Shown: positions 15,001 through 34,502 of the stretch, piece after piece
Layout of the letters: each line of letters opens with the position of its first letter
Numbering within the stretch: position 1 is the first letter of the stretch
Assembly: GCA_051294905.1 (NCBI GenBank)
Contig: CM119371.1
Span: 1,056,001-1,120,000 of the forward strand
Direction of reading: 5' to 3'
Length of the DNA: 64,000 nt
From: Botryllus schlosseri
Lineage: Eukaryota
Program-made: the position numbers and the translations under genes
The notes under the pieces: model-generated
Told to the model about the DNA's origin: nothing
What the model saw: only the letters and a program-made list of their open reading frames with translations
Database searches by the model: none

Positions 15001-18000
15001 ATATCAGCCAATAGGATCGAATACGAAGCCTCGTGAAGTTGTAACAAATTGATATGGTACAATACACTACCATCTACACATCCGTGAGAAAACAAACATA
15101 TCAACTATATTCACCAGATTTAAATCATACAAGAGGGGTTGGTAAAGGTAATCAATGGGCCATGCTAGCACACGCTGTTGTTGAATACTTCTTCTTCTAC
15201 TACTATTACTACTACTACTACTACTACGACAACGTAACCTATGATCATTTCGCTTGTGGTGAATGTATTTGTGATTCAATAATGGAGGATCATTCAAACG
15301 TACATTCCTCTGAATGCCTGGTTACTTTCACAAGTGACACAAGGTATCGCTAAAAATATGAACATACACAAAATAAAGGGATTTAATTGATAGCGTTTAC
15401 TTGATGACTTGAAATTGAGTCGTAAATTTTGCTCAGAGTCACGAGTCAATCCGCATTTTTGAAGCGCCAAGTCAAGGCAAGTCATTTCTGCAAATTGACT
15501 CGAGTCAAGTCAAGTCATACGAAAAATTTGACTCGAGTCATCCTAACACTGCTAAAGTTGTCAAAGATCACCTGAATAGCGAATCAATCAGACTTTCACC
15601 AGTAATTGTAATTATAATTGTACTTACATGTTCAGCAGTAGTTGTAATTGTAGTCAGGGTTCTAAAGACTCGAGTCACGATTTTCTGATGACTCGACTTA
15701 ACTCGAGTGATTTTCGCAAAATTCCGAAATGACTCGACTCAACTCGAGTTAATATGTGTATTGATCCGACTTGGACTCGAGTCAATACGCATGACTCGAA
15801 CCAAGTCATATGACTCGAGACTCGCCAACCCAAGACCGACATTTCATTGTATTTTCAAAGCATAGTTAAGTGACCACACTATTGGTATTTCGCCTATTGA
15901 TACTGGTAAGCTGCTTGAAAATGCGATCAAAAACTGCTACAAGTGAGGAAATTTAATATATTACGAATGCGAACCATTTGATATCAACAAACTGGGTTTT
16001 AAGAAGTGGGTTACCAAGAATTTACCCGGAAGCCGAGAATTCAACACAATCACTTGGACTTGAGTCATAATGCCATGACTCGGACTCCACCCTCTGATCG
16101 CTGACTTGGACTCGGTGGTGAATTGAAAATGATTCGACTTGACTCGAGTCAAAACTATGAAAATGAGATTAACTTGTTTCTCGAAGCCTTCGTGACTAGG
16201 TTACAACCCTGATGGTAGTTGTAATTTGATAATTTAGCATAGAGTAATTGTAATCTTGTGTAATTAAAACATGCAACAAAGTAATTGTAATTGAAATTGA
16301 ATTCAATTAATTTAATCGATTCAACACTGGAGATGGCCCTATATTTAAATTAATACAAAGTGTACTAAATTGCGCGTAGCGCCGAGAAAAAATTTCAGTA
16401 GCATAAATCTGCTATTATTTTTTATGTTTATTTGGAAAAGATTTTGAGCGTACTTCAAGCCTTCAAAACTATGGACTTTGAGGTATATATTAAAATTTTC
16501 TTCCAGACACACCAACGTGTACAGTGAAATCCCGAACATGTCCCGGAAAATCCAGACGTATACCAATCCTAGTAACTTGAGAATTTCGGACAATCATCCG
16601 TGTGCGTATTTTTCAACAAGAGCAATGTTATTGTGATGCAACGATGCGTTCGGATCATACCCACACCGCACTGCGATGATCTAAATCAATGGTGTCAAAG
16701 AAACCGAATGTTGAGTAATATTGATAGGCCAAATTATACCCAGTTACCCACTCTAGTGACAAAATGTGAGCACCGAGTTCACAGGTTTGTGTAAAATTGT
16801 ATTGCGAAGTATTTCTTCATTGAAGCGAAAACGCAATGCAAAATCGTTATATACAGGTCACACAGAGATTAAAAAGTGACAAATCATGGTGCTAATATCT
16901 GTTTTCGCAGCGCTAAGTCAGTTTTTGGTCAAACGGTCCCTGTCCTCCACACAAACCTGAAACGGGATTCAATATTGCTGAGCCAAATTCCAACGTCACC
17001 GTTTATAGTTAAATCTATCTTATTTCTCACAGCATATAGTCAGGGCTAACGCCAGATCAGAACTGAAACAATAAGAGAGCGTAAAAGCATACCACCTTAA
17101 ACCGTCGTTAGGGCCATTGCTTCAGCTGTTTATATATCTATTCAACACGCAAATTGTACTTTTGCCAAATTGATTGCTTGCGAATAAAAGTGTTACTAGA
17201 TTAGAACTCATATCATCCGTCACATAATGTAATATACTATCTTGTACACCGGCTTCATAATAAAGTAGTACAATGGCAAAATAGGGCATTGGATTTGAGA
17301 TAACATTTTGGAAGAATTCGACTGGTCCAGCCAACAAACTATCTGTAGGTTTGAATCCAGCCTGCGACGCAAGTTGAGTTTGAACACCCTGATTTCAATC
17401 CTACTCTTATATCAAGACTCCAGCATTAAATAGGTAATATGTCTGAAGATAGGAAAACTAGTATTCGATGCACGATGCGATTTTAGTTGACTGATATGCT
17501 ATTCTGATTTTTTTCTCCGGTGACCTGTAGTCCCCCGCTTGAAGTCACACTACTTATTGTGGACGGCCTTGAACTCGCATTTTGATTATAGGGTCCGTAC
17601 ACATGGCACTCGCTCGGGCCCGACATGCGACTTGAAATAGCCTATACCTACCGAGCCACATATCAATTCAAGTATTTTATGCTTGAACTCACTTGTATTC
17701 TTTTTTCAATACTCCCAGTAATGATCGCCAAAAGCTCTGCATTAATGCTGCAGTCATATAAATTCAAGCGATACAGACTTTCACTCCTTACTGCAAGCGA
17801 TCCGACAATATGAGCCTCATCGCGACTCAATGAGATGCCAGATGCATCAATATCGGAAATTTGTCTCATAAGATCGTCGTCTCCCGATTCATAGATTGCT
17901 GTATACAGTTCCATGCGAACGTGGTTGTCCTCTTTCTTCTTGAGTTGCGAACGAATTGATCCACCAAGAATTTGTCTTTTCAGTGACCGATTTGAGACTG

Positions 18001-21000
18001 TCAATCAAATAATGCACCTCACTATATCATATTACAATCGAGTAAAGAGAAACAACAGTTTTCCCTAAGGCACAGCCATGGAAGGCGTACTTGCTCACAA
18101 ATGTACGCCTGTTTTCACAACGATACAATGAATCCATGACATATGTCATTGTTGTAAAATATAGATCCTAAAGGCGAATCGTTAAAATTTCCAATTGCCT
18201 GTCGCAGATTTTCCGGCTGTCTACGTATATGCGACTTTATGTACGCAGACCGACAGAATATGATACAGTTCAGATTGGATTGATCTCTTATTGCATTGTC
18301 ACAATAGTGCGATAGAGCATGAATTCAATAAGCTCGCTGGATCCGTACCCACCATATTGTCAAGCGTGAGATATTGATTTTCTACATTTAAATTAATCGA
18401 AATTCTTTTGCAACTTTGCAAAATATATAATTTTTACCACTATTGAATGTAAACATGGAATGGCAACGAAAAAATGGCCAATTACGCTGAGTGATTGTTC
18501 GGAGCAATGAACGATCACAGCTAGTAACCTTGACTCAAAAAGCCTAAGACTCGGTTCACAATTGAGTTACTCAGATACTTAAAATATGACACGACCAAAC
18601 TCGCTTATAAAGACGGATAATTCACAGACTTGTGTTTAATGGGAGTTTTCTTATGGATTTATGTTTTATCATATATTTTGCAAATTGCTCGCAAGCGTCT
18701 TTCGTCGTTATGTACCTGGCAAATGAATGCCGGCAATCCAAGATGTGAACTAACCATTAGGCTTATCAGTGTCAATATCAGTTAGTTAAAAGAGTTATGT
18801 AGTATACTGCTTAAAAAATAGGAAAATCTGGCATGGACATGAAAAGTGTCGGTGAAAATATCACTGTAATATAATTTTGTTTTGCGGGTTTTGCAATGAC
18901 CAAGTGACAAATACGGTTTTACTGCATTCTATCCGCCTTGAAATTGAATCGATAATGTTATCGGTAAACGTATTCAGGGATAAATATGATCGTTCTGCAT
19001 TGAATGAAGTAAATGCATCGGGATAATTAAGGGCTACTACGGTAACATATGTCTCATAACTATCCGTTTTATGGCTTTCAACGTCTTGAAAGTAGCAGGA
19101 ACACGACCACGAAAAACGATATCCTCCATTGAGACCCACCTTCATGAACATCATCCGGTTTTTCATCGTAAATGAGGCCGCACACAAATCTGCGGACGAC
19201 CGCCCATCGCTCTTTGTGCAGGTGTTTAGAGTTGAAGCTCATGAACTTTTTACGCGTCATTTCCACTACAAAGCCCGCTGCAAGGAATTCCTGGAGACTT
19301 TGATGGCAGAAGAAGAAAATGAAACTGCCATCCAACAGATTGCAACTGAGGAGGTTATTTCCTGGAACCTTCATCATGAGATCTTGAACTTCATCTTTTG
19401 AAAGTCTAAACCTCTTCAAATCATTTTCAGAGAATGTCACTCTCCCTTCTTTCATGCCAAGATATGCCATTGCTTTCAATTTATTGATAATCCCCGCAAT
19501 AGCATCAGCCTTTCTAATGTTTTTCACGCTACTTAAAGTGGATATAATTTTTTTGTAGAGTCCTGTGACCGTCTTGGGAGGAGGCTCGTTCGGATTTTTG
19601 GCCATGATCACAGCGGTTAAGACCAGAAAAACGGGAATGGAAACTAAATTGATCAGCCTTGGTGACATCGTTTCTATCCTCGCCCATGCTTCATCCCCAT
19701 GATCATGTATAAGAAACACAAAAAGCTTCTTTGCGTCATCTAGATTCAGACCAGAAAGTGTGATGATGTCGGTGGGTCGAGCTTCCGCGGGCAGATCCGA
19801 GACTTGGAATTCGCGGGAAGAGATGACGATCTTTGTATCAGCGAGCAGATTACGTGAGAGGATGTTGTACATGATCGTTGCTGCTTTGGCTTTACTATAA
19901 GGATTTATGTTCTCATCGCCATCTCTGTTGATTTTCCAAGTAGCCTGATCCAAGCCGTCGAAATATAAAACTGCTTCTGATTGATGTTCAAGCAACCACT
20001 GATACGCATAATCCTCGTCGATCTTATTCTGAAAGAGGCCTCCGAAGAGAAATTTAGATGGTTTCATGGATCTTTTATCTCGCATGCCTTTTATTTCTAT
20101 ATAATGTATCAATTTATACTTGAGCTGAGAGGGGCTTGCAGTGGCTCCTGTATTCGTGAGTGAATGCCCTAAAGTTTTTCTAGCGATTCTGCGCATGAGA
20201 GTGGTTTTCCCAGATCCTGCAGACGCAACTATAGCGGTGATAGAACTTTCCCCGATGATAAGTTGCTGCAAAACTTCATCTAGCTCGATGAATTTGTTGT
20301 CGTCAACTTTTTGTCGGAGGAATCCGAACTCCTTTCTGAATTGATTTTTAACCACCTCTTCCTTTCGCCAGAAGAAGAATTTTTTTTTTACTGCCACTTC
20401 CATTTCGTGCACCTCTTCATAATTGCCTTTGAAATATCCCGACTTAGTGACTCTTCTCATCTGGGGATGTACTTGGAAATCAGGTTTGTTGAGGTCGTCG
20501 GCGCCGATGTCTTCGAGGATTCTGTCCGCCGTCTTTTGAGACGCATTATCGTTTATGCATTTTATCAGGGCTGAAGCTTTTTCTGGAAGATAACAATATT
20601 CTTTCTTCATTATATTTTATGTATAGAAATGATCGGACAAAATCTATTACCTCTGTTTGGTAATATTTTATATAACCTAGAACCCAGGTATTAAAGAAAG
20701 ATATAGAGATTTATATAGTGAATATTGCTGAATTCAGTTCGGTAAACCCGGTACCCTAAATTTACCAAGATATCAATTCATTATGGTTGAGTACAGCATC
20801 GTAAATGCCGATAATTCAAGTCTATTCGTTTGTACGAACTTACGCGTAAGTTCCTCTCTCGCACCCATTCTCGGTATTGGTATGGAACCCCGCGGCCCTA
20901 GTCTGCCGAGATTTCCCACTACTTGCTTACTACCTCAAATTTTAGTGACTGTTTGTTATTATCTTCGTGTGCGCACTGCGCAGCATGCGAGAGTGGAGCT

Positions 21001-24000
21001 TATACGCGTAAATAGAAGCGAAAAGACTTCCATTATCGGCATTTACGGTTCTATACCATTACCGGTACCGAGAACGGCCAATGCCAGGAATGTAACTTAC
21101 TGAGAAGACACCGAATTTGGCAAAGCCGTCATGCACATGCACATGACCTGTATATTAGGATCTTCAAAAATGACTTTTTTTCTCAAATCGTACTGGCTAC
21201 TTGATAAAATCGTTAGGTTGCCTAATTTAAGCATACACACAAAATTCGGTTCAATTCCAGCCCGTAGTCTCTTTGCTATAGGAGAAAAAAGTTTATATTT
21301 ATTCTAAAAAAATAAATGTTTAAAAAATTGAAAATTTTCTGTTCACCCCATGAAAGTGTTAGGCCGTCTAGAGAAACGATGTTCACCAAATTTGGTTCAA
21401 TTTCAACCAGTGGAAGCGAAGTAATTGTCGAAGAAAAATTTGGATTTGAATAAAATACCGTAGTATTTACGGTGGGCGCTACTATAATAAATAATTAAAT
21501 TGGGTAACCTAACAATTTTATCAAGTAGCCAGTAGTACGATTTGAGAAAAAAAGTCACTTTTGAAGACCCCTACTGTTTATATGCATAACATGCCTGCAT
21601 TGCATACTTTGCATTCTCGGTAACGGTTTCCTCGGTATTGACAGGACACCGGCCGGCGGGCCACATTATCAACCAAGACTGGAAACCCGCGGGCCGTATG
21701 CTGCCCGCCTCTGAGCTAGGCCATCATATAGCTCTTTATGCAAATCGAAGAGAGTAGAACCATACTAGAAATAGTTTACAGCATGTTGTTGAATCACTCC
21801 TTGACATTATTATGCAATATTTGATGAAAATTGCAGCAAAAATTGGCTACGAAAAAAAGAGGAAAGTTGCAAAAAGTTGCACTATAAAATACCGCCAAAC
21901 AGTTTAAAACACCATAGTACATAGATTATGAGTATCTAGAAAGCTTTTGGAAGCGGTAAAATAGTCGACATAGTATACTAAACCACAGCTACTCTACTAT
22001 ACTCGAAAAATTACGGTACTCATTTACTATACATGCACTGTGCCACAGTGGTTCTCAACCTTCTTGATCTCGTGGACCGCTTGAACTTCAAAACAAATGT
22101 TGAGGACATGTGATCCTTCAAAAATGTAGAACAACTTGTCCATATATCTCTGAGCTCTTATTGCTAGTTACCATTTGACAAAATTTGTCATATCTCAAAA
22201 TTTTATCCGGCCTTGTTTGCAACATGTATCCTCGTATGCAGTGATTTATGATAATTCATGTTGAAATACGACGATCACGCTACCTCTGGTTTATTTCCAC
22301 AAAGCGTTTCGAACTAGGTATTTTATCCCACAGCGAATAGTGTGTCGAAATCTAAGAAAGACGCACTGTACCACTTTTAAAAGTGAGAGTGAGAGTGAGA
22401 GCCAGAGCCAGAGCCATTTGTGTATTAAACATGATTAAATGATTAAATAAATATATTTGTATTTGATAGCTGAAAATCAAATCTTCATATTATTTCTCCA
22501 TCATATATAATAAAGGATGATACTGTTTAGTGTTGTGGCCTGCAACCTTGCATGAAGTTTTTATAATATGGGTTGCTTTGATTGAAATTTGGAATACGTT
22601 TATGTTAAATTTATTGGACCAGATAGTATGAGCATAGTGTCCTATATGGTGTGGACACAGCGGAAGTAAAGGGTTCGTTGCATTTTGGTTAGGTCATACT
22701 TTCCATTTGACCAAAGGCAACTTTACGGCCATTTTTTATCGTGTTGATGAGCGCCAAATTCAATAAAACGGGGATCAATGGAAAGCTATTGCTATACTGA
22801 TTCCGAAAATACAAATATCATTCTGTTCATGGTCCTAGAACCCCCATAATTAGTATAGAAAACTGCATTGTTCTCAAGTTTTGTCATTGTGATGCAACAA
22901 AACTGTCTCTTTCTTCTGAGCTTTACTCTCGTTTTGCCAGACGTAGCGTTAATTAGTCGAGTGCTATTCGGGCACGATTCAAAACTATTTCCAATAGTGA
23001 AGTCACTTAACCCAAAAATACCAACCAGCCTTTGAACTCTTACCACTTGTTTTTACTACTGTCCTAAAAATATGGGGATACCAGACCCAGGCAATTTTCG
23101 AAAGGGAGCGCTGCATTGGGAAAAAGGTTACAAGAACAACTGTACTATAGCATCCACCATAATACCATGTATCACTTTTGTTTAAAAGTATATGTAGCAT
23201 TCACATAAAATCTGTCCAAAACGAGTTGCGGGCTACTTATGAGTCGCCTCATATAACACTTACACGAAAACCTGATAAAGACAAGAAATTTGCTATCAGA
23301 ACCGAGTGCAAAAATACGTCCTAAACCCTGAACTATTTTCATCTTTAAATTAGGATAAATAGATTTAATACATTTGGTGGACCGGCACTGATCGGCAGCT
23401 GAGAACCACTGCTGTACAGTACATGTACACTACATGATGTAGGCTACTGCTCGTGCAGGATGTGTGCTATACATGGGTACTGGATTTTTCTCAGTAACTA
23501 CATGCCAATTTCAGGGTATGTATTATACATGGGGCGTAATATACATAAAAAATTACAGTATACCGTAAACCGGGGTTACTTTTGACTCAAGGGTAACTTT
23601 GGACACTAAGCAGTAAAAGATTTAAATGGTTATTAAATGGTTGCCGCTGAATGTCAAATTCTTTTTCATGAGGCAACAGTACCACAAGTAGTCTCAATAA
23701 AAGATGGATTCATTTCACTACAAGATAAACTTGAGCCAACATTGATAAATTAATGGCGGGGGTCAATTTCATCAAAATTGATGGCTATTAAACTTCTCAC
23801 CAATAAACATTAATAGCATGTGATTCATAGACACAAAACTTGGCAACAGATACCTCTAAGTCAGGGGTCACCAACACGCGGCCCGCGGGCCGCATGCGGC
23901 CCGCCAAGTCATATTCTGCGGCCCGCGACCTGATTTGAGATTTCGGATGAAAGCTAAGAAATCCAATTTCAAATGCTGAACTTGACTACAGTTTCAACAT

Positions 24001-27000
24001 GTTGTTGTTGCTGTTTCAAAACAAGCTATTCTCCTGTACCCAACATCACTATTCGTCACTAGCTGAAACGGCTGTGGTGATGGCAACAGCATTCCATCGC
24101 GGGGGAATCTGCTGATATGAATGGGCATATTGCCTTGACTTTCAATGGCCCAAAAACACTGCCAAGACCGAGACGCTTAGAAACGGCTTAGGGCAGTAGT
24201 TCCCAAACTGGGGAGTGCGAAAGCATCTGAGATGCGCTCAAATGCGGAGATGCGCTCAAATGAAAAAATATTCACGCTCCGCGCGATTTACCTCATATTC
24301 ATAGTTATTGCTCTGTGTATAGTCCGGAATTCATCTTATAGAATGCTCTCATCAACAGCCATAACCTTCTATGCCATCAAACTAGCCGTTGGGATTGCTA
24401 GCATTCTGGTTGCATTTTGTGATATGACAATTTTTCAGTATCATAAAGGGTGTATGTCTAAAAAAGGTTTGAGAACGACTGGATTAGGGCTTCCCCATAA
24501 GATCAAGCTTTACGTGGAGATGATCTTTCAGCTAGTAACGTATCTCGCTGGTCCCAATATCGATTCCTTAGTCGCTGAAAAGCGTTCCTATGTATCGTAC
24601 ACAGCTCACAGTTCAAAATAAAATAAAATTGATGATTATGGTTTTTTGTTGTATTTGTATTCATTTAATAAAATATTATTTCTTTTGTGGTCAATATTCC
24701 CATTGCCTATGTTAGGTAGCTCACCGTTGTACTGAAATAGAGTTTTAGAACGTGGTGCCTATTTTACATCGATATCGAATTAATGCGGCCCGCGGCCTCT
24801 ACGAAATTTGAAAAGTGGCCCGCGGTCCGTTTTGAGTTGGCGACCCCTGCTCTAAGTAGTCCTAATCCATGGCAATAATCTCAGTGGGCTCACCCTTACA
24901 TCAATACAAGAAAATGTGATGTCCAAAGTTACTTTGGACAGTGGAAAATGTGATATTTAGAGCTCTGGAAAGTGGATGCTTCATCTGTGGCAAAGTGTAT
25001 CGTCAACTATATTTCTTATGACCGGCCTGATGGCTTTTTAAAATGGAATGAGAAGATTAATAAATTAGAGTTTGCCAAAATATCAAAAATGGGTAGGCTA
25101 GGCAATGAGGTGAGATAGTGAGATATTGTAATCGGGTGTAAGCTACTTGAAAAACATATCACATATGGTACTCCTACAGATGCACCTGCAGAGTAAGGGA
25201 TATCGTAAATTACGATAAATATATCTATCAGAGGACATAGGAAAGGGAAAGTGTATCTTTTAAAGAACAGTAATATATCTGAAATCGGCAATAAATCACG
25301 GTAACATGCTTAATGTATGCTGTCGATTGCTGACACTGCCAGTGGGATACCCCTTATCTTTATATGTCATTTATAAGTCCTAATGGGTGAAGCCATTGGG
25401 GAAAATTGAGAGAAGAGATGAATAAGGGGGTATTAGCCTACCTAATTTGTGTTTTTTTTTTGGGGGGGGGGATTAGGTAAAAATCATGCCATAGGCCAGA
25501 CACATACTATTTTGTTTCAGTTTTAGCCGCTGCTCTCATCAACTCTTACCAAATAAACCTCATTTACGTGGTTTCATAAACAGTAGAATTAAATAGTATA
25601 TTCATATTGAAATGAACCCGAATATTTTCGGCTGACACTCGTCAGGGGTAATCGTCAGCAACTAGTAGAGAATTGGAAAGAACATTGTATATCAACAATC
25701 GTATCACAAAATATGACGTCACCAGCATGAAATTTCGAATGAGAGAACGTTCAATGTACTATTTTTAGGTGATACACGAACTCCTTTTGTTGACAGAGTT
25801 TTGGTTGGTGTATTTTGATAAAAGTGTCAGCCGAAAATATTCGGGTTCATTGCAATATGAATATACTATTTAATTGTATATTGAAGTTCTGTACCTCCAA
25901 GAAGCTCTTCAAATAAACAGTAGAGTGTAAAGGCATACAAAAACTACATTTTCCACAGTTACCCCACAGTTACCCCATCAAGCAATCTGAACTATCTTGC
26001 TTAATTCTGCATGGAGTTTTATTTTCCGTCATGGTTTGAAATAAAAAGGCACAATTCCATTGTTGATGGTGCTAAAAACTTCTGCAACATAGTTTTCCAT
26101 ATTACAAAGCTTTCTGATACACGAATTCGCAACCTTGCACTACCTTTGCTACAAGGAAAAGCATATTTTGCACATCCGGATAATGTCTTTTGGGAATGCT
26201 TGGTGATGATGATGAAGGCCTCGGAAGACTTGCAAGATTTCAACTGTGAGCAGATCAAACAGAATACCAGATTCCAATTAATGACTTTGAAGGAGGATAT
26301 GTTAATGAAACGAAACCTAAAAACAACGTTGACACTAGAATCAGATTGTTTAAAATCCCAATTATGAACATCAAGGCCAAATCATACCACTAAATTGTCA
26401 ACTTGAATCTAAAAGATATGGAACAGCCACCAGCAATCAAAAACTCACCATATCTCGAGATGGAAAATCTAAGGTCATCTCCTCAAAATCCTTGGCACAA
26501 CCAGGCAGTGGAAAGAGACGTTAAAGTGGTGACCAAAGCATCTGCCCATGTGTCGGGATTTAAACGTAGAGATGACTTAATCAGAGAAAAACTGAAGTCT
26601 CAAAAACAGATGAAATCTTTTAATACAAAACAAGATTTCAAAGTTTGTGCAGACTAATACTCTGGTGGTGAAATCATCTTCGAAATATATCTTTTTCAAT
26701 ATGGAATTGATGGTTTTGTGTTTTCAATATGAATTAACAATTTATGTGTTTCCAATATGGAGTTGTCAGTCATAAGATCGATGACTACACGCTTTTGGCC
26801 TCGTACCCTGCTTCAGTGCCTAATTTTACCGAAAAATGGTCTAAAAATCAATAATTTGCTCATAACTTTTTTTCTGTTCATTTTTATGACAAAGTTCTGT
26901 GGAAGTGAGATAGAAACTTGTTGCTTCTGCATCTTTTGAGCCCAAAATCAGCTTTCTAGAGGAAGCGGTCATCAATATATAGCGAAATTAGCTATTTTTG

Positions 27001-30000
27001 GCTCGTTCGATGCAATTGCACGACCACTAGAGGGTACACGAACCCAAAATTATTATAGAAATTATTTTTTTTTAATTTGGCACCACATATCAAGTGTCCG
27101 TTTTAAAATTCAAAATTTTCCATTTTTCACTCCACCCTATTGGACACGGATAATTTACAAAAATGAAGTACAGATTTATAACAATGAAAATTTTTGATTA
27201 GGTCATTCTAATCTTTGTTTCATGACCCCTGAAAAACACATAACTTGCCTCCCCTACACCCTAGCATTTCCAAGATACAAAGCGGAATTGTTGAAAATTG
27301 TCCAAAGTTACCCCGGTATACGGTACCACCCAATAACCTATCACATTTTATAAAGGGAATAAAACTTAGAACAGTGTTTAAAAGTGGGAGATTTTGAGAG
27401 ATATGAGTGAAAAAAGTGTTGAAGTTCCGGTGCCATACAAGCAAAACCAGTTGGCTAAATGTACACGTACACGGATACCATCTTCGTGAATACCACTGAA
27501 AAGTAGAAGCATAACGTTACTGATTACCTCTGGTCTAGTCTTTAAAAGAGCCAATAAAGATATTCTAAACTTTTTAATAGAGAGTTGAATCGAAAAAGTT
27601 TGGAAAACACTGACCTATAAGATATGAAGAGCATACTGTAGCAAAAATGTATACATCATTCATGATCAATATGTTGCCAGTAGCCTACTAAGCCCAGTAA
27701 AGATATGGTGATTAGGGGTAGGAAGTAATATTCATAGCCTGATTTCATTGAAGCTTTTTGTCATATTGATTGTTACTGAGTGATTCCATATCACTCATCA
27801 CAAATCACCCATTTAGTGATCACCCATTCGTGAAACTTAACTAATTTTATATTGAATCCTTGCAATGGTGACAGTCAGTCATAAAACATATTAGCCAGAT
27901 CACCTTGTCTAAACATAGTATAGAAGAATCTCTTGAACATAGCAATGAAATGAGCCCAAGAGTAGAACCTGCTTAGAACACAACAAGCCTCAAAACAAGT
28001 CAACGATATAAAATTGAAATATTTTTAGTGTAATTCTGTCTACACAAATATTACAAACGCTAGTTTTAAGGGGAACAAATCGCCTGCATCTGACTACAAT
28101 ACCCATTACTGTCACAACTTCAAAAGTAGGCCTAATTTATATTAACATCTCATTAGCTTAAAATTCAGCGTTACAATATATACAGCTTTCATATGGCAAA
28201 AATGAAAGGGATACTCCCGTGATTTCAATGAGCAATGACCTCAAACTTGAGTTATATGCTGGTTCCGTACACAAATAACACAAATAACTTAAAAGATATA
28301 GCTATGATAATATTTGTTGATTCACGGGCCTCAATTGAGTTCGGCCACTCAATTGGCCAATTGTGGGTTTAAGATGCGGCAGTTACGTATTGTGTTCCAC
28401 TACTAGAAGTGCTATATAGTGTCGCTTTTTTCTCTCTCCTGAGAGAGAGTGCCGCAAGGTCCAAAGGTTGAGAACTACTGATATAAAAGTCATGTTGTTA
28501 AAATATTCGAACCAGTCATGTCACTCTCCTAAATTAGGCTACTAGTCAGTGAATTCTTAGAAATTGCTGCTATTGGTATATTCTCGATTTAAGGCAGGGC
28601 ACCAAACTCAAACTCGGCCACATCGGTATGACGAGCCAGATATCGGCCTCACTCAATGCGATATTCTCTCCCAGTTCACAATCTAATCTATCCCAATCCA
28701 AATCTACGCGTCTAAACTTTGTTAGACATATTTCTCTATCGCCCTCATCGGACTCATATCACTATTCCACCCAAAGTTTTGTTATATTCTGGCAGTTACT
28801 GAAAAGGCTTCTGACCCCAGCGGCAGCTCAATCTCCTACACTGCAAAACCATTACTGCTGTATATTTTTCGAAGGAAACTGCTATACGCAGTTTGTTGCT
28901 GTTATTGTTGCCGGTACGGTACTCTCTTGTTATTGCATTATGACGTTTCTCACTTAACAGAAGGTTTAACCTTAGGTCACGGGAAAGTGATGCGGCCACC
29001 GTTCATTGCGTATGAATCATAAGCTGTATTAGTTTGTACTTTGAGCGGACATGAATTTCTATGTCCTAATTCAATCCAAATCCGACAAAATTTCACAAAT
29101 CCTGTTTTTTCAAATCCTAATCCATGCTCATGGCGTCCTTCTGGCGTTCCTTCTTCGCCAACGCCTCTACACCCTTGGAATATTTCAATAATGTTGTGTG
29201 CTGTTTTCTAGGTTATTTATAACCGAATATGTGCTCGTTAACGTTTGTTTTGTGTCGTTACTACCGTATCTTGCCTGTCTACTAGTTGTTTTTTATGTGA
29301 TTATTACGTCATAGACACAAAATAGTTATTACATTTCGAATCTGATCCACCCTATCACTGACGTTCGCTACTGAGGGTCAGTCGAAAAGCTTTTAGCGAA
29401 TAAATTACCAATATGATGTTATTGTTTCGCGAATGCGTAATTTAATGCCGCTACGCGGCACATACAGCGGATGCGACTGCCAATTAAACCACGTAATAGT
29501 TCGTCTGTCATAGATCATAAAAGAAAAGAATAAAATAAAGTGAAATTGATCGTCTTTGGGCGATTGATCATCCGAGACTGTAATAACCTTTTCAGCGTGC
29601 AAATAAGCAGGCTATGCGATGCCTGCCATGTTATCCCATTGTGTTTTCTGCAGATGTGGTCAGTAACGAAGTACTTCTACTATTTGAAGTACTTGAAGTA
29701 GATTTTGCCTACTCACACTACTTTTTAAGTAGTTATGATTTTAGACTACTTCTACTTCTACTTGACAGTTTTCAGTTTTGTATGCAAAAATATGCGTAGA
29801 ATACCTACTTACTTACTTACTTGTGAACCACCAATCCTACTTCTACTTGACTAGAAATGCCGGCGTTACTTCTAATTCTACTTGAGTAGCGACGGTGACT
29901 ACTTTCACCAACTCTGGTTTTCTGCTGAGTGAAGCATTAAACGAAAATCGTTCGGGATACGCGTGTCATCTGTTGAGCTCCATTTTTTGATAAAATGCAT

Positions 30001-33000
30001 CAGTTAAAAGGTTGATTGAATACTAAGGTGTGGAGGTTTTGTAAGAGAAGGCATATGTAAAATCCATCATTGTGAATTGGAAATTGTACTTTGTAATGAT
30101 GCGGAAAGTGCCGCCAGATAAAGATTGAAAGTTGTAACTAAGTCGCATGGTTTCGAGTCATAAGTCAACCTCTTTCTTATAGTTTTGCCTCGAGTCGAGT
30201 CGTCATTTTCAATTCACCACCGAGTCAAGTCCGAGTCCAAGTCATTGTGTTGGCTTCTAATTTTCTACTGAAAGACTAGTTGCGCCCACTTTTTATAACT
30301 CTGGTGCAGATATGCGGTAATCGTGATTAGTAATCGAAATCCATTACGACGATTACAGCATTTGAAAATAATCGTAATCGCAATCGATTACATTCGAAAA
30401 AAATCCGAAGTAATTGCAATCGACTACTTCACATATCTAATCGATCTGTTTGTGAAAGAACTATTACTTTTCATTTGTTCAATGCCCATGACATAAACTG
30501 AACATTCGTGAACAATGAAGAGTGCGATTTGAAACAGGTTTTGGATAGCAGAAATGTCATATGGTCAAACGCCCCTGCTCATTATTGCGTTACTAGTATT
30601 GGCTCTTCATTGCGTAACGAATTATCCGCACATAGTAAATAGATATTCGTTATACATGTAGTACTGTGATTGTAAGAAAACCCGCTATGATTATGTCAGA
30701 TTATCACTACGCTGCAGACGCCACTACCTTGCAGCAGGATAATAATCACCGCTCTGCCTAGTTTCGAATAGTATCGTATGTAGGCCCACTAAGAATTGAT
30801 GTTTTGTTATACTTAGGTGAACGCAGTTTAACAGTTGATTGGCTAGCGGTAGGCCTATCTACGTTTACACCGGGTAAAGATTTGATATTTTTTACTCGTC
30901 AAATCGTCATGACAATTTATACATCGAAGCATTAACAACCAACGGCTGCTGATAAAAAATCATAACTGAGCCGTTATTATCCATTACTCGTATACCGACT
31001 AATTATTTTTCTGTGTATGACATGCAGGAAATACGTTGACGAGCTAAGACAAAATATTGCACTACATTCTGCGTGCATTAATCTCTAATAATTACCTGGA
31101 AAGAGCTCGAATGTGAATCTAGTTTATTTCGTTAATCAACATGAAGTAGAGTGTTTGGGACACATTTTATTTTTCTTCAAAGTTTTCCCCGCAATTCCCG
31201 CGTATATAGTCCATCTTTGACCCGCGAAACGTAAAACGCCCAGGTCCGCGCAATGCTTATCGACAGACGTTCAGGGGACCCTTAATTTCCAATGAGTTAC
31301 AAAACAAAACTCTACCACATGTGTCCATACCATATATGTGTGGAAATCAGTAGGACAACCAGTAAAGATAGTTAAGCTGACTTGACAAACCACACATTTA
31401 TTTAGTTGATAGTCAACTAACTAATAGTTTTTTGAGTAGTTTTAGTTCTAGTTGATGATTTTGAAAGTTGAGTAGTTTAATTTCTCGTTGTAGCTGCGGA
31501 TTGTAAAAACTGACTAGTTGCAGTTCTAGTTGTTTTGAAGATTTTGAAAATCTGGTAAATCTAGTTATTTTTACATAGTTGCGAGTTTTAAAAAATGAGT
31601 GGTTCTATTTCTAGTTGACCTTTTTTACAACCCAAGAGTTTGTACAAGTTTGGTTTCTGGTTGGATTTTCAAGTACCAGTACCAATAGACGAAATTACAA
31701 TGGAATGTCGGTCTTGGCCGTCTGAGTCTCGACTCATATGACTTGGTTCTAGTCATGCGCAATAACTCGAGCCCAAGTTGACTCAGTACACAGATTGACT
31801 CGAGTGTAGTCGAGTCATTTCCATATTTTAGGAAAATGAATGGGGTCAGGTCTAGTCATCAGAAATTCGTGACTCGAGTCATTATAACATTGCCCCACAT
31901 ATATATACACGACCAATGTTAACGATGTGGTGCAGCTGCATCATGGGACATTTGGCGACAATGACCATTGATTTTATGAAACAGGATGTACTACATAGTA
32001 CCGGATAAAACACTTACGTTGGTCTTGTGCAATAGCGTCAATTCCAGAATTCATAATGTAGTTGATGGTGGTCTTGTTTCCGTGAATTTGATCTCCTGCC
32101 ACAACGTTGACCGAGCTGTTTATGATCCGTTGATTGATGTATTCGCCTTCTGCCAAACTTGCAGATCCTGAGACACGCGAGAATATTACGTCTGATATTC
32201 CGGTTCTCATTTCCATATACTCATTTGAAAGCATTTTTAAATCAAGTATCGATCATGGAAACTTCCCATAATTTCTCCTTAATATTAGGTTATGCAGCGC
32301 TCGAATATTAATATTATATTTCAATAATTTAATTATATGCTTTGTGGTACGGAAATTGAATATAGCTTTCAATGTATTCATAGTAGTAGAATATTTATTG
32401 AACTTGAAGAATTCTAGGGTGCCTCTTTTCGAGAGTTAACGGCACACCAAAAAGATTTTAACACATTTAAAAGTAAAACCAAAAAGGCTAAGTATGACAC
32501 AACAATCAAAATCACAGACCATGAGATTCGCATTGTAACTATGATACCTATATTAAACTTCGAAGTGAAGTAAGGTATGGTTGCCAAAAAAATCGGCCCT
32601 GGGGAATTTTGTATTAAAATGTATAACCAACCATTAATATGAGATAATTACATAATTATACTACTATGAAGTGATTCGCAGTTCAGGGTATGCGTAGCTC
32701 GCGAGAGATACCGCGGATATTTACGAGGCCGAATTAACATGGTAAATTCGGCCCTGGGAGAATTTTATATTAAATGTATTCCCAACTATTAACATGAATT
32801 GCACCATTATCTTATTATCAAGTGATTTGGAGGTCGCGGTATGCGTAGATCATGCAGTCACGGGCGATAACGCGAATATTTACGGCTCCGAATACATTTT
32901 AATAGAAAATTCATTTTTATGCAAAATTCATCGACGGCCAAATTTACCGAGGGCCGAATTTCCGAGGGCCACTAGTAACCCACGCCCCGAGGTCATATAG

Positions 33001-33516
33001 CGTAATTTATAAATATACAGTTGCAAACACGAAACAAAATAAACTAAGGATAAATTAGTGAGTTGTGGACAGAATATTTTTGTCAGCATAAATAGGTTTG
33101 TCAATTGAATAAGGGTATAGTTCAACACTGTTAAATGAAACAAAGATCTGCCTAGCGCAATGACAGTGAATACATTGTCATCAATTATAGTGTTGTGTGC
33201 AGGCTAGATTTTCACTTGAATGTTTAGCATTCGACGAAGCATATGCTTGGAGTAATCCTCATAAGAATATGTTTGGGCAGCTAATTTGCATTGGCGTGCG
33301 AGCTCTACGTGGTCTATTTGCGAATGTTTTATAGCGAATCGATTCTTGATTATGCTGCTTTATACGCTCGAACAATCCGTGCTAACTTTAATATGATTTC
33401 ATAGGATATAGATATGAACTCAAATGTTCTAGCAATTACTTACTGCTTCCTTCAGGTAATAATGGTGGAGGCACATCATCGACACCAGAAATTCGCTCTT
33501 CTCCCCCTTCCGCCAT
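1..33516 (-). CDS. Multi-exon NLR-like gene (short N-terminal motif + NACHT + divergent LRR-like region); 3' end uncertain, probably beyond the window start
   Basis: Hand-built exons: 33516-33444, 32167-32018, 20582-19140, 19084-18923, 17997-17693, 8192-8088, 5560-5459, 4964-4809, 3032-2949, 2813-2646, and probably 25-<1. All junctions are GT-AG, phases match (1,1,1,1,0,0,0,0,0,0), and there are no in-frame stops over ~916 codons. Confidence 0.75.
322..2241. mobile_element. hAT Blackjack-like MITE, interrupted by the foldback element at 378-1968
   Basis: Termini TAGTGTTACCG...TGGTAACCCTA with subterminal GTCCT motifs. A related reverse-strand copy lies at ~38026-38390. Confidence 0.5.
378..1968. 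mobile_element. Foldback non-autonomous DNA transposon with ~460-bp inverted arms
   Basis: 378-~838 is the reverse complement of ~1488-1968 (GGGGTGTT...AACACCCC). It shares the CCAAATTTGGCTCAATTCCAACCAGTAG motif with elements at 7088, 21156 and 57118. Confidence 0.8.
2646..2813 (-). CDS. 56-codon exon [10 protein letters not shown]...ACQQKK
   Basis: cattttag|TTG ... AAG|GTAGTA, 168 nt (2x28 codons), phase 0-0. Confidence 0.65.
2949..3032 (-). CDS. 28-codon exon [28 protein letters not shown]
   Basis: gtgttcag|ATA ... CAA|GTACGA, 84 nt (typical size of one RI-type LRR unit), phase 0-0. Confidence 0.65.
3741..4075 (-). mobile_element. Diverged end fragment of the Kolobok family element
   Basis: AAAAATGATGTGGTCTCAAATTGAAG...CAGCCGTTTTCTTCAGAACGCC matches the TIR, and the match continues into sequence specific to the right end (reverse complement of ~13600-13990, e.g. 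GGCCTAGTGTATTCT). Confidence 0.75.
4809..4964 (-). CDS. C-terminal exon [17 protein letters not shown]...KLEK
   Basis: attttcacag|GAT ... AAG|GTGTTA, 156 nt, phase 0-0. Confidence 0.6.
5459..5560 (-). CDS. Divergent LRR-like exon [15 protein letters not shown]
   Basis: attcag|GTT ... AAG|GTTTGA, 102 nt, phase 0-0, open frame. Confidence 0.6.
7088..7943. mobile_element. Palindromic hAT-type MITE
   Basis: Long inverted arms; termini GGGACTGTT/AACAGCCCTG; flanks aagcagag/atgcagtg (6/8 TSD match). Confidence 0.7.
8088..8192 (-). CDS. LRR-like exon [20 protein letters not shown]
   Basis: cag|GTG ... AAA|GTGAGA, 105 nt, phase 0-0, LRR consensus VxxVxLxxNxF. Confidence 0.7.
9602..10585 (+). pseudogene. 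KolX-like / P2X7 ballast-like zinc-cysteine protein pseudogene
   Basis: Exons ~9602-9804, 9865-10156, 10408-10585. Motifs PYQFEP, WCSCLNC..M....[46 protein letters not shown]. An 8-nt insertion near 10053 shifts the frame, and there is a TGA at 10445-10447 where W is expected. The start codon was not identified. Confidence 0.85.
10895..12616 (-). pseudogene. Kolobok THAP-DDE transposase pseudogene
   Basis: Exons 12616-11951, 11894-11770, 11698-11470, 11388-11242, 11172-10895. Partial THAP (CAVTSC...IP...RRQW); motifs [44 protein letters not shown]. 1-nt frameshift at ~12082 and TAG at 11791-11793. Confidence 0.9.
11020..11104. repeat. Exact in-frame 42-bp tandem duplication in the transposase 3' exon
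   Basis: [14 protein letters not shown] occurs twice. Confidence 0.95.
12694..13219. mobile_element. hAT-type MITE nested in the Kolobok element
   Basis: AAGTGCTTTTCAACCT...AGGTTGAAAAGCACTT inverted termini. Confidence 0.6.
13283..13568. mobile_element. Old MITE with CCTAAC-like interior, nested in the Kolobok element
   Basis: Imperfect TIR GTTCCCCATGAACATGACAAAATTCA / TGAATTTTGAAATGTTCAGAGGGCAC. Confidence 0.45.
14596..15551. mobile_element. hAT-type MITE with (GAGTC/AAGTC)n subterminal arrays
   Basis: CAGTGTTGGGAT...ATCCTAACACTG; TSD ctacagtt/ctaaagtt; homologous to 45510-46419. Confidence 0.85.
15655..16211. mobile_element. hAT-type MITE with GACTCGAGTC arrays
   Basis: CAGGGTT...AACCCTG termini. 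Related decayed copies at ~30130-31890, 48530-49002, 52870-53370 and 61880-62500. Confidence 0.65.
17693..17997 (-). CDS. NLR HD2/first LRR exon
   Basis: Encodes [11 protein letters not shown] (HD2-like) and [11 protein letters not shown] (LRR LxxLxLxxCxI). Acceptor ttgacag|TC, donor CAA|GTGAGT. Confidence 0.85.
18923..19084 (-). CDS. Probable symmetric (phase 1-1) 162-nt exon after NACHT
   Basis: Acceptor ctactttcaag|AC after a 55-nt intron, donor A|GTAAAA, open frame [11 protein letters not shown]...RRIEC. Confidence 0.55.
19140..20582 (-). CDS. NACHT domain exon (NBD, HD1, WHD)
   Basis: Walker [14 protein letters not shown], Walker [11 protein letters not shown], sensor IVISSRE, HD1 [23 protein letters not shown], and [11 protein letters not shown]. 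Acceptor tcttccag|AA, donor G|GTGGGT; 1443 nt. Confidence 0.95.
21156..21573. mobile_element. hAT-type MITE
   Basis: TAGGATCTTCAAAAATGAC...GTCACTTTTGAAGACCCCTA, ~75-bp TIR, TSD ctgtatat/ctgtttat. Confidence 0.85.
22046..23411. mobile_element. hAT (Charlie-like) non-autonomous element
   Basis: CAGTGGTTCTCA...TGAGAACCACTG termini with GTGGACC subterminal motifs; TSD degraded. Confidence 0.6.
23862..24849. mobile_element. hAT Charlie-like MITE
   Basis: CAGGGGTCACCAAC...GTTGGCGACCCCTG with GCGGCCCGC repeats; perfect TSD CTCTAAGT. Confidence 0.9.
24194..24481. mobile_element. hAT MITE nested in 23862-24849
   Basis: CAGTAGTTCCCAAAC...GTTTGAGAACGACTG; TSD gcttaggg/gattaggg; homologous to ~47289-47599. 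Confidence 0.8.
25587..25875. mobile_element. Small palindromic non-autonomous element (unclassified)
   Basis: ~53-bp near-perfect inverted repeat AATTAAATAGTATATTCATATTG..AACCCGAATATTTTCGGCTGACACT. Confidence 0.75.
26011..26657 (+). pseudogene. hATm-type transposase C-terminal remnant
   Basis: Motifs [54 protein letters not shown], spread over shifted frames. Downstream end CCACCCTA at 27132-27139 (reverse complement of TAGGGTGG). Confidence 0.8.
32018..32167 (-). CDS. NLR exon 2 carrying an amyloid/RHIM-like motif
   Basis: Acceptor gtgtctcag|GA, donor C|GTAAGT, 150 nt, phase 1-1. Encodes [49 protein letters not shown]. Confidence 0.7.
32579..32979. mobile_element. Decayed relative of the 50976-52048 element
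   Basis: GGTTGCCA...TAGTAACC ends, CGGCCCT/GAGGGCCG subterminal repeats, shared ATGCGTAGATCA.GCAGTCACGG core. Confidence 0.6.
33444..33516 (-). CDS. NLR exon 1 ([24 protein letters not shown])
   Basis: ATG at 33516, 24 codons +1 nt, strong donor A|GTAAGT; phase 1 matches the acceptor at 32167. Confidence 0.65.
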
Positions 33517-34502
33517 GATCACGATCACGTAATGGTAAATAAATGCTATATCACACAATACTAAGAATGCAAAGACAGGAAATATCCTACACTATTTGAG
33601 AAATTTAATTTTGGTACCGCGCTAAGACTAAAGTATTCGATTCGAGTCCATTCATTCCGAAGCTGTGAATAACATCCCCAACTTTGGAACTGTAGAACTT
33701 TGGAACTTTAGTTCAAATTTAGCTTAATTATCGTGCAATCGTCATCTGTCTCGTGCAAATGGCAACTGTAGGATTAGTGATAAACAGCAATGAAATGACT
33801 TTTCTTGAAAATAAGATCATACTATTCATTAGGGATGGCTTGATCGTGAGGTTCACGTTCTCGTTTTGTCTGTGAATCTCTTAAATTCAGAGGTTCACGT
33901 TCGCAAACGAACCTTGGTAGGTTTTGCACTCTGAGCCTTTTTCATGTAGGCCCTACTACATTTTTTTCACATCTTTATAACCTTGCCAATCTCTAAATCA
34001 CACAGCATCAAGCACGAAATACACTCACATGGAGGTAGTCAGCGAATTATGCTCATTACTAGGGCGATTTTTTTTTTACCTAAAAAACGAAAGATTTTGA
34101 CCTAAAAAATCTAAATTTTGACATTAAAAAACTAAATTTTGACCAAATTTTGACCTAACGTATGCAAATTAGGTGTTTTCCCAAAAAATGTTGGAATTTT
34201 AATACTTAACCTCATTTCTGGTTTGAATTGTCTGTCCTTACGAAGTAGTTTTCCCTCAAAAACTTGTTTGACTCAGAAACTGACGAATTTTTACATGACG
34301 AAATATTATTTTAACAAAATTTGGCCCTATGATGAATTCCAGTACATGATGTAGGCTACTATGGTGAAAATAATTAAAATGTGTTGCAGTACAACGAAAG
34401 ATACTTTTCTGCATTCTCGGCAGGGATAACTAGTTCTAGATATCCCTGGGTCTCGGGTAAAAAGTGTCCGTCTTTAGTAAGTAGCTTGCCAAGGATGAAG
34501 AT

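What the first reader, a model, noticed from the sequence alone, without database searches (positions are those of the whole stretch)
32058..32138. Animal NLR whose N-terminus carries an amyloid-signalling-like motif instead of a death-fold domain
Seen: two small upstream exons splice in phase onto the NACHT exon, giving only ~75 aa before the NACHT-proximal region, with no recognisable CARD/DD/PYD/TIR. The single notable feature is [27 protein letters not shown]. It is N/Q/G/V/I-rich, proline-free, beta-branched and patterned like a beta-arch, and it has its own symmetric 150-nt exon. Established: fungal (NWD2/HET-s type) and bacterial (BASS) NLRs signal through short N-terminal amyloid motifs that template a matching motif on a cell-death effector; RHIM is the animal analogue. 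Inference: this may be an amyloid-signalling NLR in an invertebrate, with a matching effector encoded elsewhere. The motif is not a canonical RHIM (no [IV]Q[IV]G).
Basis: partly seen in the sequence, partly recalled or inferred. Interest (0 to 1): 0.85.

Follow-up and report, generated by a model that had tools for sequence, protein, structure and literature searches.

The report
Conserved short motif exon upstream of NLR
A small, conserved exon encoding a beta-strand-prone 27-residue motif lies upstream of an immune-receptor (NACHT) gene of a probable sea squirt and may be a self-assembling signalling tag, but neither the splicing nor the assembly has been shown.

Summary
It lies in a 150-nt phase 1-1 exon (32167-32018) with canonical splice sites. 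An ATG exon (33516-33444), this exon, the 1443-nt NACHT exon (20582-19140) and a fourth exon (17997-17693) all join in frame.

The motif is more than chance. Three unrelated short ORFs from public assemblies carry it at 63-70% identity. Eighteen of 49 columns are invariant, including VNVVAGDQI[H/Y]GN, and the apparent exon length is the same.

The NACHT exon is a true NLR nucleotide-binding module: it matches Pfam NACHT, folds like NOD2, and its best named relatives are Styela clava NLR-like proteins.

Several things are not shown:
- The RNA reads were too sparse to confirm or refute either junction.
- No leucine-rich-repeat exon was found in the window.
- No partner carrying the motif was found.
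- The motif matches no RHIM, HET-s, PP or sigma profile, and it breaks the G-phi-Q-phi-G core (it reads GDQI[H/Y]G).

An animal NACHT protein with an N-terminal RHIM is already in print for amphioxus. My verdict: the exon is real and conserved. It is probably (about 0.7) the NLR's N-terminal tail. An amyloid-like signalling role is plausible but untested (about 0.3).

The parts
33444..33516 (-). Putative exon 1: ATG plus 24 codons ([24 protein letters not shown]) plus 1 base, followed by donor gtaagt
   Evidence: Sequence read. The frame is open for 25 codons upstream of the ATG, so the true 5' end is unknown. No RNA support.
32018..32167 (-). Motif exon: 150 nt, phase 1-1, acceptor cag|G, donor C|gtaagt. 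Encodes (R)[49 protein letters not shown]
   Evidence: It recurs in 3 independent ORFs whose similarity starts at the acceptor-encoded G and which run about 49 residues to a GT-like break (the boundaries in those copies are inferred from protein letters only).
32076..32156 (-). Conserved core of the motif, L4 to N30: LAEGxxxNQxx I[N/K][11 protein letters not shown][H/Y]GN
   Evidence: 18 invariant columns in the 4-sequence alignment A1. Chou-Fasman windows give strand, break at AGDQIHGN, then strand.
19140..20582 (-). NACHT exon: 1443 nt, phase 1-1. Contains a pre-NACHT helix, the conserved KPDFQVHPQ region, the nucleotide-binding domain with Walker A GSGKT, a winged helix and helical domain 2
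   Evidence: Pfam NACHT 4.1e-14 and NOD2_WH 3.7e-5. AlphaFold2 pLDDT 76.9. Foldseek top hit NOD2 5irm_C, E 7.9e-17, TMq 0.64. Splice sites.
20608..20610 (-). In-frame ATG inside the polypyrimidine/acceptor region of the NACHT exon: an alternative start that would skip the motif
   Evidence: Among the 14 unnamed paralogous ORFs the first ATG is not at a conserved position, which argues against this being the family's start codon.
17693..17997 (-). Exon 4: 305 nt, acceptor cag|T, donor CAA|gtgagt. Post-NACHT region that ends in a leucine-rich-repeat-like stretch
   Evidence: tblastn with 11 Styela clava NLR-like proteins hits 18004-17705 at E 2e-6 to 3e-11.

Best explanation
The 150-nt exon is a real, conserved coding module. 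It most likely forms the N-terminal tail of a tunicate NLR-type NACHT protein, together with a short acidic, proline-rich first exon.

The tail has no globular effector domain. Instead it carries a roughly 27-residue, G/N/Q/V/I-rich motif, LAEGxxxNQxxI[N/K][11 protein letters not shown][H/Y]GN, followed by a short hydrophobic stretch.

Proposed mechanism: when the NACHT module oligomerises, several copies of the motif are brought together and fold cooperatively into a stacked beta-arch (strand, AGDQ-x-GN turn, strand). This is a RHIM-like or amyloid-like homotypic assembly. It would then recruit or template another protein that carries a paralogous copy of the motif.

Shown: the exon, its conservation, its phase-compatible position upstream of a true NACHT exon, and the absence of any known domain.

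Inferred: the splice link, the beta-arch, the self-assembly and the existence of a partner.
For: 1. Conservation. 3 of 6 phmmer hits in 1.84 billion representatives are short ORFs with the same motif (63-70% identity, E 3e-7 to 3e-5). 18 of 49 columns are invariant, with a nearly invariant 12-residue block, VNVVAGDQI[H/Y]GN. The flanks after GN diverge and gain prolines.
2. Exon boundaries. Similarity begins at the G encoded by the acceptor. All copies run about 49 residues to a GT-like break (read by eye). One 91%-identical contig (X20 record 16) matches up to 32166 and then diverges.
3. Gene model. All four exons are on one strand, in phase, with canonical sites.
4. An upstream start is expected. 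14 unnamed paralogous NACHT-exon ORFs have no conserved start ATG. Styela clava full-length models carry 40-600 extra N-terminal residues before the homologous KFINYFNKRT...EPDFEVNPQ region.
5. No alternative domain. Pfam finds nothing for 4 of 4 copies. The pre-NACHT part of exon 3 is one helix plus low-confidence segments, not a six-helix bundle.
6. Composition and predicted strand-break-strand pattern.
7. Precedent. Amphioxus has a RHIM-NACHT-repeat protein (PMC4262963, passages). A review reports that ascidian NLRs lack a recognised N-terminal domain (PMC11508797, passages).
8. Weak support. A module in the N-terminal regions of Styela NLR-like proteins also starts G-SAS-L (SASLLQTEEPTNVEINESNIHIMGGEG...). 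It aligns with the motif at an empirical p of 0.006 in an anchored profile test, but hhalign probability is only 3%.
Against: - No RNA evidence for either junction. In the RNA raw-read run X24, depth on the NACHT exon was about 0.4-1.5, and 4965 of 5006 laid reads fitted only partly. No 33444>32167 or 32018>20582 joint appears among the 15 joints shown; 145 more joints were not shown.
- An in-frame ATG at 20610 could start a motif-less protein.
- The putative intron is 11.4 kb and could hide further exons.
- No RHIM, HET-s, Ses_B/PP or NACHT_sigma match at E<=10 in 0 of 4 copies. No solved-structure sequence match at E<=10.
- The core reads G-D-Q-I-[H/Y]-G rather than G-phi-Q-phi-G. The one-residue insertion would change strand register.
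- No second copy lies in the window. The best non-self HMM score is 6.1 bits, inside the shuffled range of 4.3-12.8.
- The gene context of the three paralogous exons is unknown, so no effector partner is known.
- AlphaFold2 of the 49-mer gives a low-confidence helix (pLDDT 55.6), which is uninformative.
- No significant amphipathic periodicity.
- Only four copies are known.
Confidence: 0.3

Rival explanations
1. The exon is the NLR's N-terminal tail, but it acts as an ordinary short linear or regulatory motif with no amyloid-like templating. It could be a docking peptide for a folded partner: for example, the invariant V-N-V-V fits the psi-x-psi-psi pattern of SUMO-interacting motifs (pattern recalled, not tested). 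Or it could be an autoinhibitory strand that packs on the NACHT module.
For: The conservation and position are the same as for the main reading. No amyloid-motif profile matches. Charged residues lie inside the motif (7 of 49). The first helix of exon 3 is modelled with high confidence (pLDDT 86-92), so the N-terminal region may contact the NACHT module.
Against: A nearly invariant 12-residue block rich in G, N and Q is longer than typical linear motifs. No partner domain is known. Nothing here tests binding.
Confidence: 0.3
2. The motif exon is not part of the NACHT mRNA. It belongs to another, unannotated gene or to an alternative or untranslated 5' exon, or the NACHT protein starts at the ATG at 20610. 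The phase match would then be chance (about 1 in 3 per junction).
For: No junction reads. The gap is 11.4 kb and full of repeats, with depth up to 49,615 in X20. An in-frame ATG lies 26 nt upstream of the acceptor. No full-length protein with both motif and NACHT appeared in any search.
Against: No other gene was found within 30 kb on either side: 75 ORFs of 85 or more residues gave only THAP and P2RX7_C-like hits, which lie elsewhere. Relatives need upstream exons. Both upstream donors are consensus GTAAGT. There is a suggestive likeness to a module inside Styela NLR N-termini.
Confidence: 0.25
3. The peptide is a degenerate ankyrin-type helical repeat or another small helical element, not a beta motif.
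For: The top phmmer hit P0002 is an ankyrin-repeat protein. In its best stretch, HGHQKTVEYLLKSGADVNARD aligns with [21 protein letters not shown]. AlphaFold2 draws a helix.
Against: The best single stretch scores only 15 bits; the E-value comes from summing 9 weak repeat matches. The ankyrin-like half is exactly the part that is not conserved in the three paralogues. No Pfam Ank match at E<=10. The AlphaFold2 model has low confidence. A lone ankyrin repeat is not expected to fold (general knowledge).
Confidence: 0.05

Closest known systems
RHIM (RIPK1/RIPK3/ZBP1/TRIF; Pfam PF12721), including the amphioxus RHIM-NACHT-repeat protein BF82280 (Kajava et al. 2014, PMC4262963)
   Same: A short, non-globular motif of about 20-30 residues, rich in N, Q, G, I and V. 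In amphioxus it lies where an NLR would normally carry a death-fold domain. Three blocks resemble the RHIM rows printed in that paper's supplement (seen; compared by eye only): I-x-N-S-x, then G-x-Q-I-x-G, then an aromatic followed by a hydrophobic residue.
   Different: The core is G-D-Q-I-[H/Y]-G, not G-[I/V]-Q-[I/V]-G. Extra residues separate the blocks. No Pfam RHIM hit. The same paper says tunicates appear to lack RHIMs. No kinase or adaptor partner is known here.
Fungal NLR amyloid signalling motifs (HET-s/NWD2, sigma, PP) and bacterial BASS motifs
   Same: The architecture is a short motif at the N-terminus of a STAND/NLR protein, with variable flanks. It follows the same predicted logic: oligomerisation nucleates a fold that is passed to an effector.
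   Different: In those systems the matching motif lies on an adjacent effector gene. Here no second copy exists within 64 kb. No HET-s, Ses_B or NACHT_sigma profile hit. The host is an animal and the motif has its own exon.
Styela clava NLR-like proteins (e.g. P0017, P0021, P0044)
   Same: Best named relatives of the NACHT exon: 30-37% identity among those matching at E<=1e-60; weaker hits fall to 27-28%. They share the pre-NACHT KPDFxVxPQ region. Their long N-terminal regions contain I/V/N/Q/H-rich motifs and a module that also begins G-SAS-L.
   Different: Homology of the N-terminal modules is not established: hhalign probabilities are 0.3% and 3%, Smith-Waterman shuffle p is 0.015-0.5, and the anchored test gives p 0.006. 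One Styela protein (P0046) has many tandem 33-residue repeats that look helical.
Vertebrate NOD2/NLRC/NLRP NACHT modules
   Same: The fold of exon 3 matches NOD2 (E 7.9e-17, TMq 0.64), then NLRP3 and NLRC4. Pfam NACHT and NOD2_WH match.
   Different: No CARD or PYD. About 15% identity. Leucine-rich-repeat exons were not found in the window.

Membership tests
RHIM / PP / BASS3 motif family | Central G-phi-Q-phi-G signature (Dyrka et al. preprint 10.1101/2020.01.06.895854, passage read) | tested here: not met
   All 4 copies read G-D-Q-I-[H/Y]-G: D replaces the first hydrophobic residue, and there is one extra residue before the second G.
RHIM / PP / BASS3 motif family | Match to the curated profiles (Pfam RHIM, Ses_B/PP) | tested here: not met
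   0 of 4 copies match any such family at E<=10. HMMER filters may drop very weak hits.
RHIM / PP / BASS3 motif family | Forms amyloid fibrils and mediates homotypic interaction | not testable with these tools
The AlphaFold2 monomer is uninformative.
NLR-associated amyloid signalling motifs (functional class: HET-s, sigma, PP, BASS) | Motif lies at the N-terminus of an NLR/STAND protein | tested here: inconclusive
   The gene model is in phase with canonical sites, but there are no junction reads.
NLR-associated amyloid signalling motifs (functional class: HET-s, sigma, PP, BASS) | A matching motif on a separate effector protein, usually encoded next door | tested here: not met
   No second copy in the 64-kb window: the tblastn best hit has E 1.1, and the HMM next-best score of 6.1 bits is within the null. 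Three paralogous exons exist elsewhere, but their genes are unknown.
NLR-associated amyloid signalling motifs (functional class: HET-s, sigma, PP, BASS) | Short (about 20-40 residues) conserved core with variable, disordered flanks; match to HET-s or NACHT_sigma profiles | tested here: inconclusive
   Core length and flank pattern are met. Profile matches are not met.
Animal NLR (NACHT-LRR) | NACHT nucleotide-binding domain with Walker A, followed by winged-helix and helical domains | tested here: met
   Pfam NACHT 53.2 bits (cutoff 26.7) and NOD2_WH 24.2 bits (cutoff 23.1). NOD2-like fold.
Animal NLR (NACHT-LRR) | C-terminal leucine-rich repeats | tested here: inconclusive
   Exon 4 ends in a leucine-rich-repeat-like stretch and is homologous to the Styela post-NACHT region. 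However, 0 of 98 downstream minus-strand ORF fragments hit a leucine-rich-repeat family, and tblastn found none. Short repeat exons could escape both tests.
Death-fold (CARD/PYD/DD/DED) or TIR N-terminal effector domain | Profile match or six-helix bundle upstream of the NACHT domain | tested here: not met
   No Pfam hit in exon 2 or in residues 1-129 of the NACHT-exon ORF. The model shows one helix plus low-confidence segments. Exon 1 (24 residues) was not scanned.
Ankyrin repeat | Profile match and conserved helix-loop-helix pattern | tested here: not met
   No Pfam Ank hit. The ankyrin-like half is not conserved in the paralogues.

The most novel reading that the evidence does not exclude
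Tunicates, a lineage reported to lack RHIM, have evolved (or kept in altered form) their own NLR-linked cross-beta signalling motif, VNVVAGDQI[H/Y]GN. It is carried on a mobile phase 1-1 exon that can be shuffled between receptors and effectors. The paralogous exons seen elsewhere would then include the cell-death or signalling partners. This would be a new metazoan family of functional signalling amyloids.
Probability: 0.2. Interest if true: 0.8.

Novelty: new variant of a known kind. Interest (0 to 1): 0.45.

Why it matters
Functional amyloid signalling downstream of NLRs is well documented in fungi and filamentous bacteria. In animals it is known mainly through RHIM.

Ascidian NLRs are described as having no N-terminal effector domain (PMC11508797, passages), so how they signal is open. 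A conserved, exon-sized, beta-prone motif at that position gives a concrete, testable candidate for the missing output module.

If it does assemble, it would add a second, RHIM-independent amyloid signalling motif to animals. It would also show exon shuffling as the way receptor and effector come to share a motif.

If it does not assemble, the finding remains a useful correction to gene models of tunicate NLRs.

Tried and rejected
- RNA support. No RNA holder was listed for the stretch. Laying 2 RNA raw-read runs and 2 contig runs on 17000-33700 gave almost only repeat-derived partial matches and no decisive joint. The two contig runs hold intron pieces, so they behave like DNA.
- Whole genome. 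None is held.
- The search for homologous proteins with the 49-mer, 'longer' setting: 14 candidates, none at E<=0.1. This is weak evidence, because P0003 and P0004 should have qualified by length and were not found.
- Protein atlas: best feature score 0.81, below the useful range.
- Solved-structure sequence search with the 4-sequence profile: 0 hits at E<=10.
- Metagenome scan: 1 locus (L001), in which a prokaryote- or phage-like ORF contains VNVVAGDQ by chance.
- Complex prediction with 4 copies: tool not available, nothing folded.
- AlphaFold2 of the 49-mer: pLDDT 55.6, a single helix, uninformative.
- Likeness to the extreme N-termini of Styela NLRs (MADQGQQQEGANIVNIQ...) and to the N-terminus of P0025: not above shuffled controls.
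- Ankyrin reading: rejected.
- Second motif copy at 2754-2798(+), [15 protein letters not shown]: chance level.
- Earlier findings of this scan: four look-ups, nothing.
- Comparison with RHIM, HET-s or BASS alignments beyond Pfam was left out, because it would need sequences that are not from the window or a stored record. The RHIM rows in the supplement of PMC4262963 were compared by eye only.
- Literature searches that found no description of this motif or of an N-terminal motif in tunicate NLRs. These were search listings plus passages of PMC4262963, PMC11508797, PMC12261475, PMC8662601, PMC12881547 and the preprint 10.1101/2020.01.06.895854. bioRxiv supplements are closed.
Full report
**1. 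What is in the sequence**

On the minus strand, window:32019-32165 translates to [49 protein letters not shown].
- The exon runs 32167-32018 (150 nt). It is preceded by ...gtgtctcag and followed by gtaagt. It starts and ends in phase 1.
- Upstream, an ATG at 33516 opens 24 codons plus one base, ending at 33444 before gtaagt.
- Downstream, a 512-codon open frame (19078-20616) has an acceptor ...tcttccag| at 20583/20582 and a donor GAAG|gtgggt at 19140/19139. This gives a 1443-nt exon, also phase 1-1.
- A fourth exon, 17997-17693, follows in frame.
- The four pieces therefore join without a frame break.
- The 49-mer has 10 N/Q, 4 G, 11 V/I and no proline.

**2. Is it more than chance?**

Yes.
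- phmmer of the 49-mer against 1.84 billion cluster representatives gave 6 proteins at E<=0.001. Three are short ORFs of 83-99 residues from public run assemblies, each a singleton cluster on a 1.2-1.6 kb contig. They carry the same motif at 63-70% identity.
- In the four-way alignment, 18 of 49 positions are invariant: A5 E6 G7 N11 Q12 I15 S17 V19 N20 V21 V22 A23 G24 D25 Q26 I27 G29 N30. After N30 the copies diverge and acquire prolines.
- In two of the ORFs the reading continues upstream of the motif with unrelated residues. Likeness starts at the G that, in the window, is encoded by the acceptor's g plus GA.
- All three run about 49 residues to a point where the letters are compatible with a GT donor. 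I read this from the protein letters, so it is an inference.
- The other three phmmer hits are long repeat proteins. For the ankyrin protein P0002, the best single stretch scores only 15 bits.
- One 359-nt contig in run X20 matches 31859-32166 at about 91% and then diverges at the acceptor, so closer copies exist as well.
- No second copy lies in the window. The best tblastn hit has E 1.1. An HMM of the four cores scores 88 bits on itself and 6.1 bits on the next-best site, inside the range of 4.3-12.8 bits for the best hit in 30 shuffled windows.

**3. The gene it probably belongs to**

- Exon 3 matches Pfam NACHT (4.1e-14) and NOD2_WH (3.7e-5, above its cutoff).
- With an alignment of 26 relatives, it folds at pLDDT 76.9. 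Foldseek ranks rabbit NOD2 first (E 7.9e-17, TMq 0.64), followed by NLRP and NLRC4 chains.
- In the 'longer' search, 18 of 20 relatives are NLR-like proteins of the ascidian Styela clava, most at 30-36% identity and one at 28%. In the 'near' search, 6 of 20 are Styela proteins (27-37%) and 14 of 20 are unnamed single-exon ORFs (33-52% identity). The window therefore most likely comes from a tunicate. I did not try to go further than that.
- The 14 unnamed ORFs begin at different, non-homologous methionines. The Styela full-length models carry roughly 40 to 600 residues upstream of the region that aligns with the start of exon 3 (KFINYFNKRT...EPDFEVNPQ against ALIKCINDN...KPDFQVHPQ). Both points say that this family starts in upstream exons, not at the in-frame ATG at 20610.
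- Exon 4 is homologous to the Styela post-NACHT region (11 proteins, E 2e-6 to 3e-11).
- I could not find leucine-rich-repeat exons further downstream: tblastn found none, and 0 of 98 ORF fragments hit such a family. The sensor part of the gene is therefore not documented.
- Elsewhere in the window there are only transposon-type ORFs.

**4. The splice link is not shown**

- No RNA run holds the stretch as contigs.
4965 of 5006 laid reads fitted only partly, mostly on repeats inside the 11.4-kb gap.
- Run X21 gave 25 reads.
- Neither expected joint is among the 15 joints listed, and 145 joints were not shown.
- A 311-nt contig of X19 (92% identical) matches exon 3 only from its position 144, and the match stops at 20583. 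This fits an exon boundary there but does not reveal what lies upstream.
- I rate the link at about 0.7. The grounds are strand, phase, consensus donors, the family's need for upstream exons, and the absence of any other gene nearby.

**5. What the motif is not**

- Pfam finds no family for any of the four copies at E<=10. That rules out RHIM, HET-s, Ses_B/PP, NACHT_sigma, death-fold, TIR and ankyrin.
- The sequences of solved structures give nothing at E<=10.
- The RHIM/PP/BASS3 families share a G-phi-Q-phi-G centre (preprint 10.1101/2020.01.06.895854, passage). Here all copies read G-D-Q-I-[H/Y]-G.
- By eye, against the RHIM rows in the supplement of PMC4262963, three blocks recur in order but with insertions between them: I-x-N-S-x, G-x-Q-I-x-G, and an aromatic followed by a hydrophobic residue. 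That is a lead, not a test.
- The pre-NACHT part of exon 3 models as one confident helix followed by low-confidence segments. It is not a six-helix bundle.

**6. Relation to Styela N-termini**

- Many Styela NLR-like proteins begin with I/V/N/Q/H-rich stretches. Several contain one to three copies of a module that starts G-SAS-L, like the window's exon.
- Tests of homology were weak:
  - hhalign probability 0.3% for the extreme N-termini and 3% for the module (score 14.8 against 9.1 ± 2.3 for column shuffles, maximum 20.3).
  - Smith-Waterman shuffle p between 0.015 and 0.5 for eight segments.
  - An anchored profile test that excluded the anchor residues and took the best of six offsets gave an empirical p of 0.006.
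- I picked the module by eye, so this counts as suggestive only.

**7. Most likely working**

The position (where NLRs carry their output domain), the size, the conserved G/N/Q/V/I core with free flanks, the lack of any fold, and the amphioxus precedent all point one way. The most specific reading is a homotypic, cross-beta (RHIM-like) assembly motif that is nucleated when the NACHT module oligomerises.

I give this 0.3. Three rivals remain:
- An ordinary linear or regulatory motif on the same tail: 0.3.
- A gene-model error, with the exon belonging elsewhere: 0.25.
- A helical or ankyrin-like element: 0.05.

The first rival is equally likely. I lead with the cross-beta reading because it is the more specific mechanism.

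Nothing here tests assembly. The complex predictor was unavailable, and the monomer model is uninformative.

**8. Novelty**

- RHIM at the N-terminus of NACHT-repeat proteins is in print for amphioxus. The same paper states that tunicates appear to lack RHIMs (PMC4262963, passages).
- A 2024 survey describes ascidian NLRs as lacking an N-terminal domain (PMC11508797, passages).
- My six literature searches turned up no description of this motif.
- If it is functional, it is a new variant of a known kind. As it stands, it is a well-supported conserved exon with an untested function.

Noticed in passing
window 11228-12625 (-): Three adjacent open frames form a broken transposase-like gene: a THAP domain (E 3.8e-4) at 12041-12625 and a MULE transposase domain (E 4.2e-5) at 11946-12164. 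It lies downstream of NLR exon 4 and is probably a transposon remnant inside or beside the gene.
   Followed up: partly
window 9595-10092 (+): A 166-codon open frame matches the P2RX7 C-terminal intracellular domain family (PF20478, E 4.3e-6). The context is unknown.
   Followed up: no
window 25355-25911 and 29254-30367, 31482-32038: Very high contig depth in the laid runs (up to 49,615 in X20), with many loose ends at 25587-25597, 25910-25914 and 30202. These are dispersed repeats that fill the putative 11.4-kb intron.
   Followed up: no
window 14656-14752, 15470-15540; similar ORF texts at 15419-16200 and 31625-31855: Short tandem arrays (periods 37 and 33) with a GACTCGAGTCAAGTC-type unit. 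The same element seems to recur just downstream of the motif exon, and it translates as ...TRVKSSH... in several frames.
   Followed up: partly
P0046 (Styela clava protein), residues about 170-560: More than ten tandem copies of a 33-residue unit (ITDSQIQEVRAEQIHEVHAEKVVQNVTNIDETN-like) lie upstream of the NACHT domain. The N-terminal regions of tunicate NLRs appear to be built from repeatable short modules.
   Followed up: partly
window 33516-33444 versus 32156-32139: Exon 1 begins MAEGGEE and the conserved motif begins LAEGE (MAEGE in the paralogue P0003). Exon 1 may be a degenerate duplicate of the start of a motif exon, or in some paralogues the motif exon may itself carry the start codon.
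   Followed up: no
L001 2097-2204: A metagenome contig ORF contains VNVVAGDQ in an otherwise unrelated prokaryote- or phage-like protein. This is a chance match to the search pattern.
   Followed up: yes
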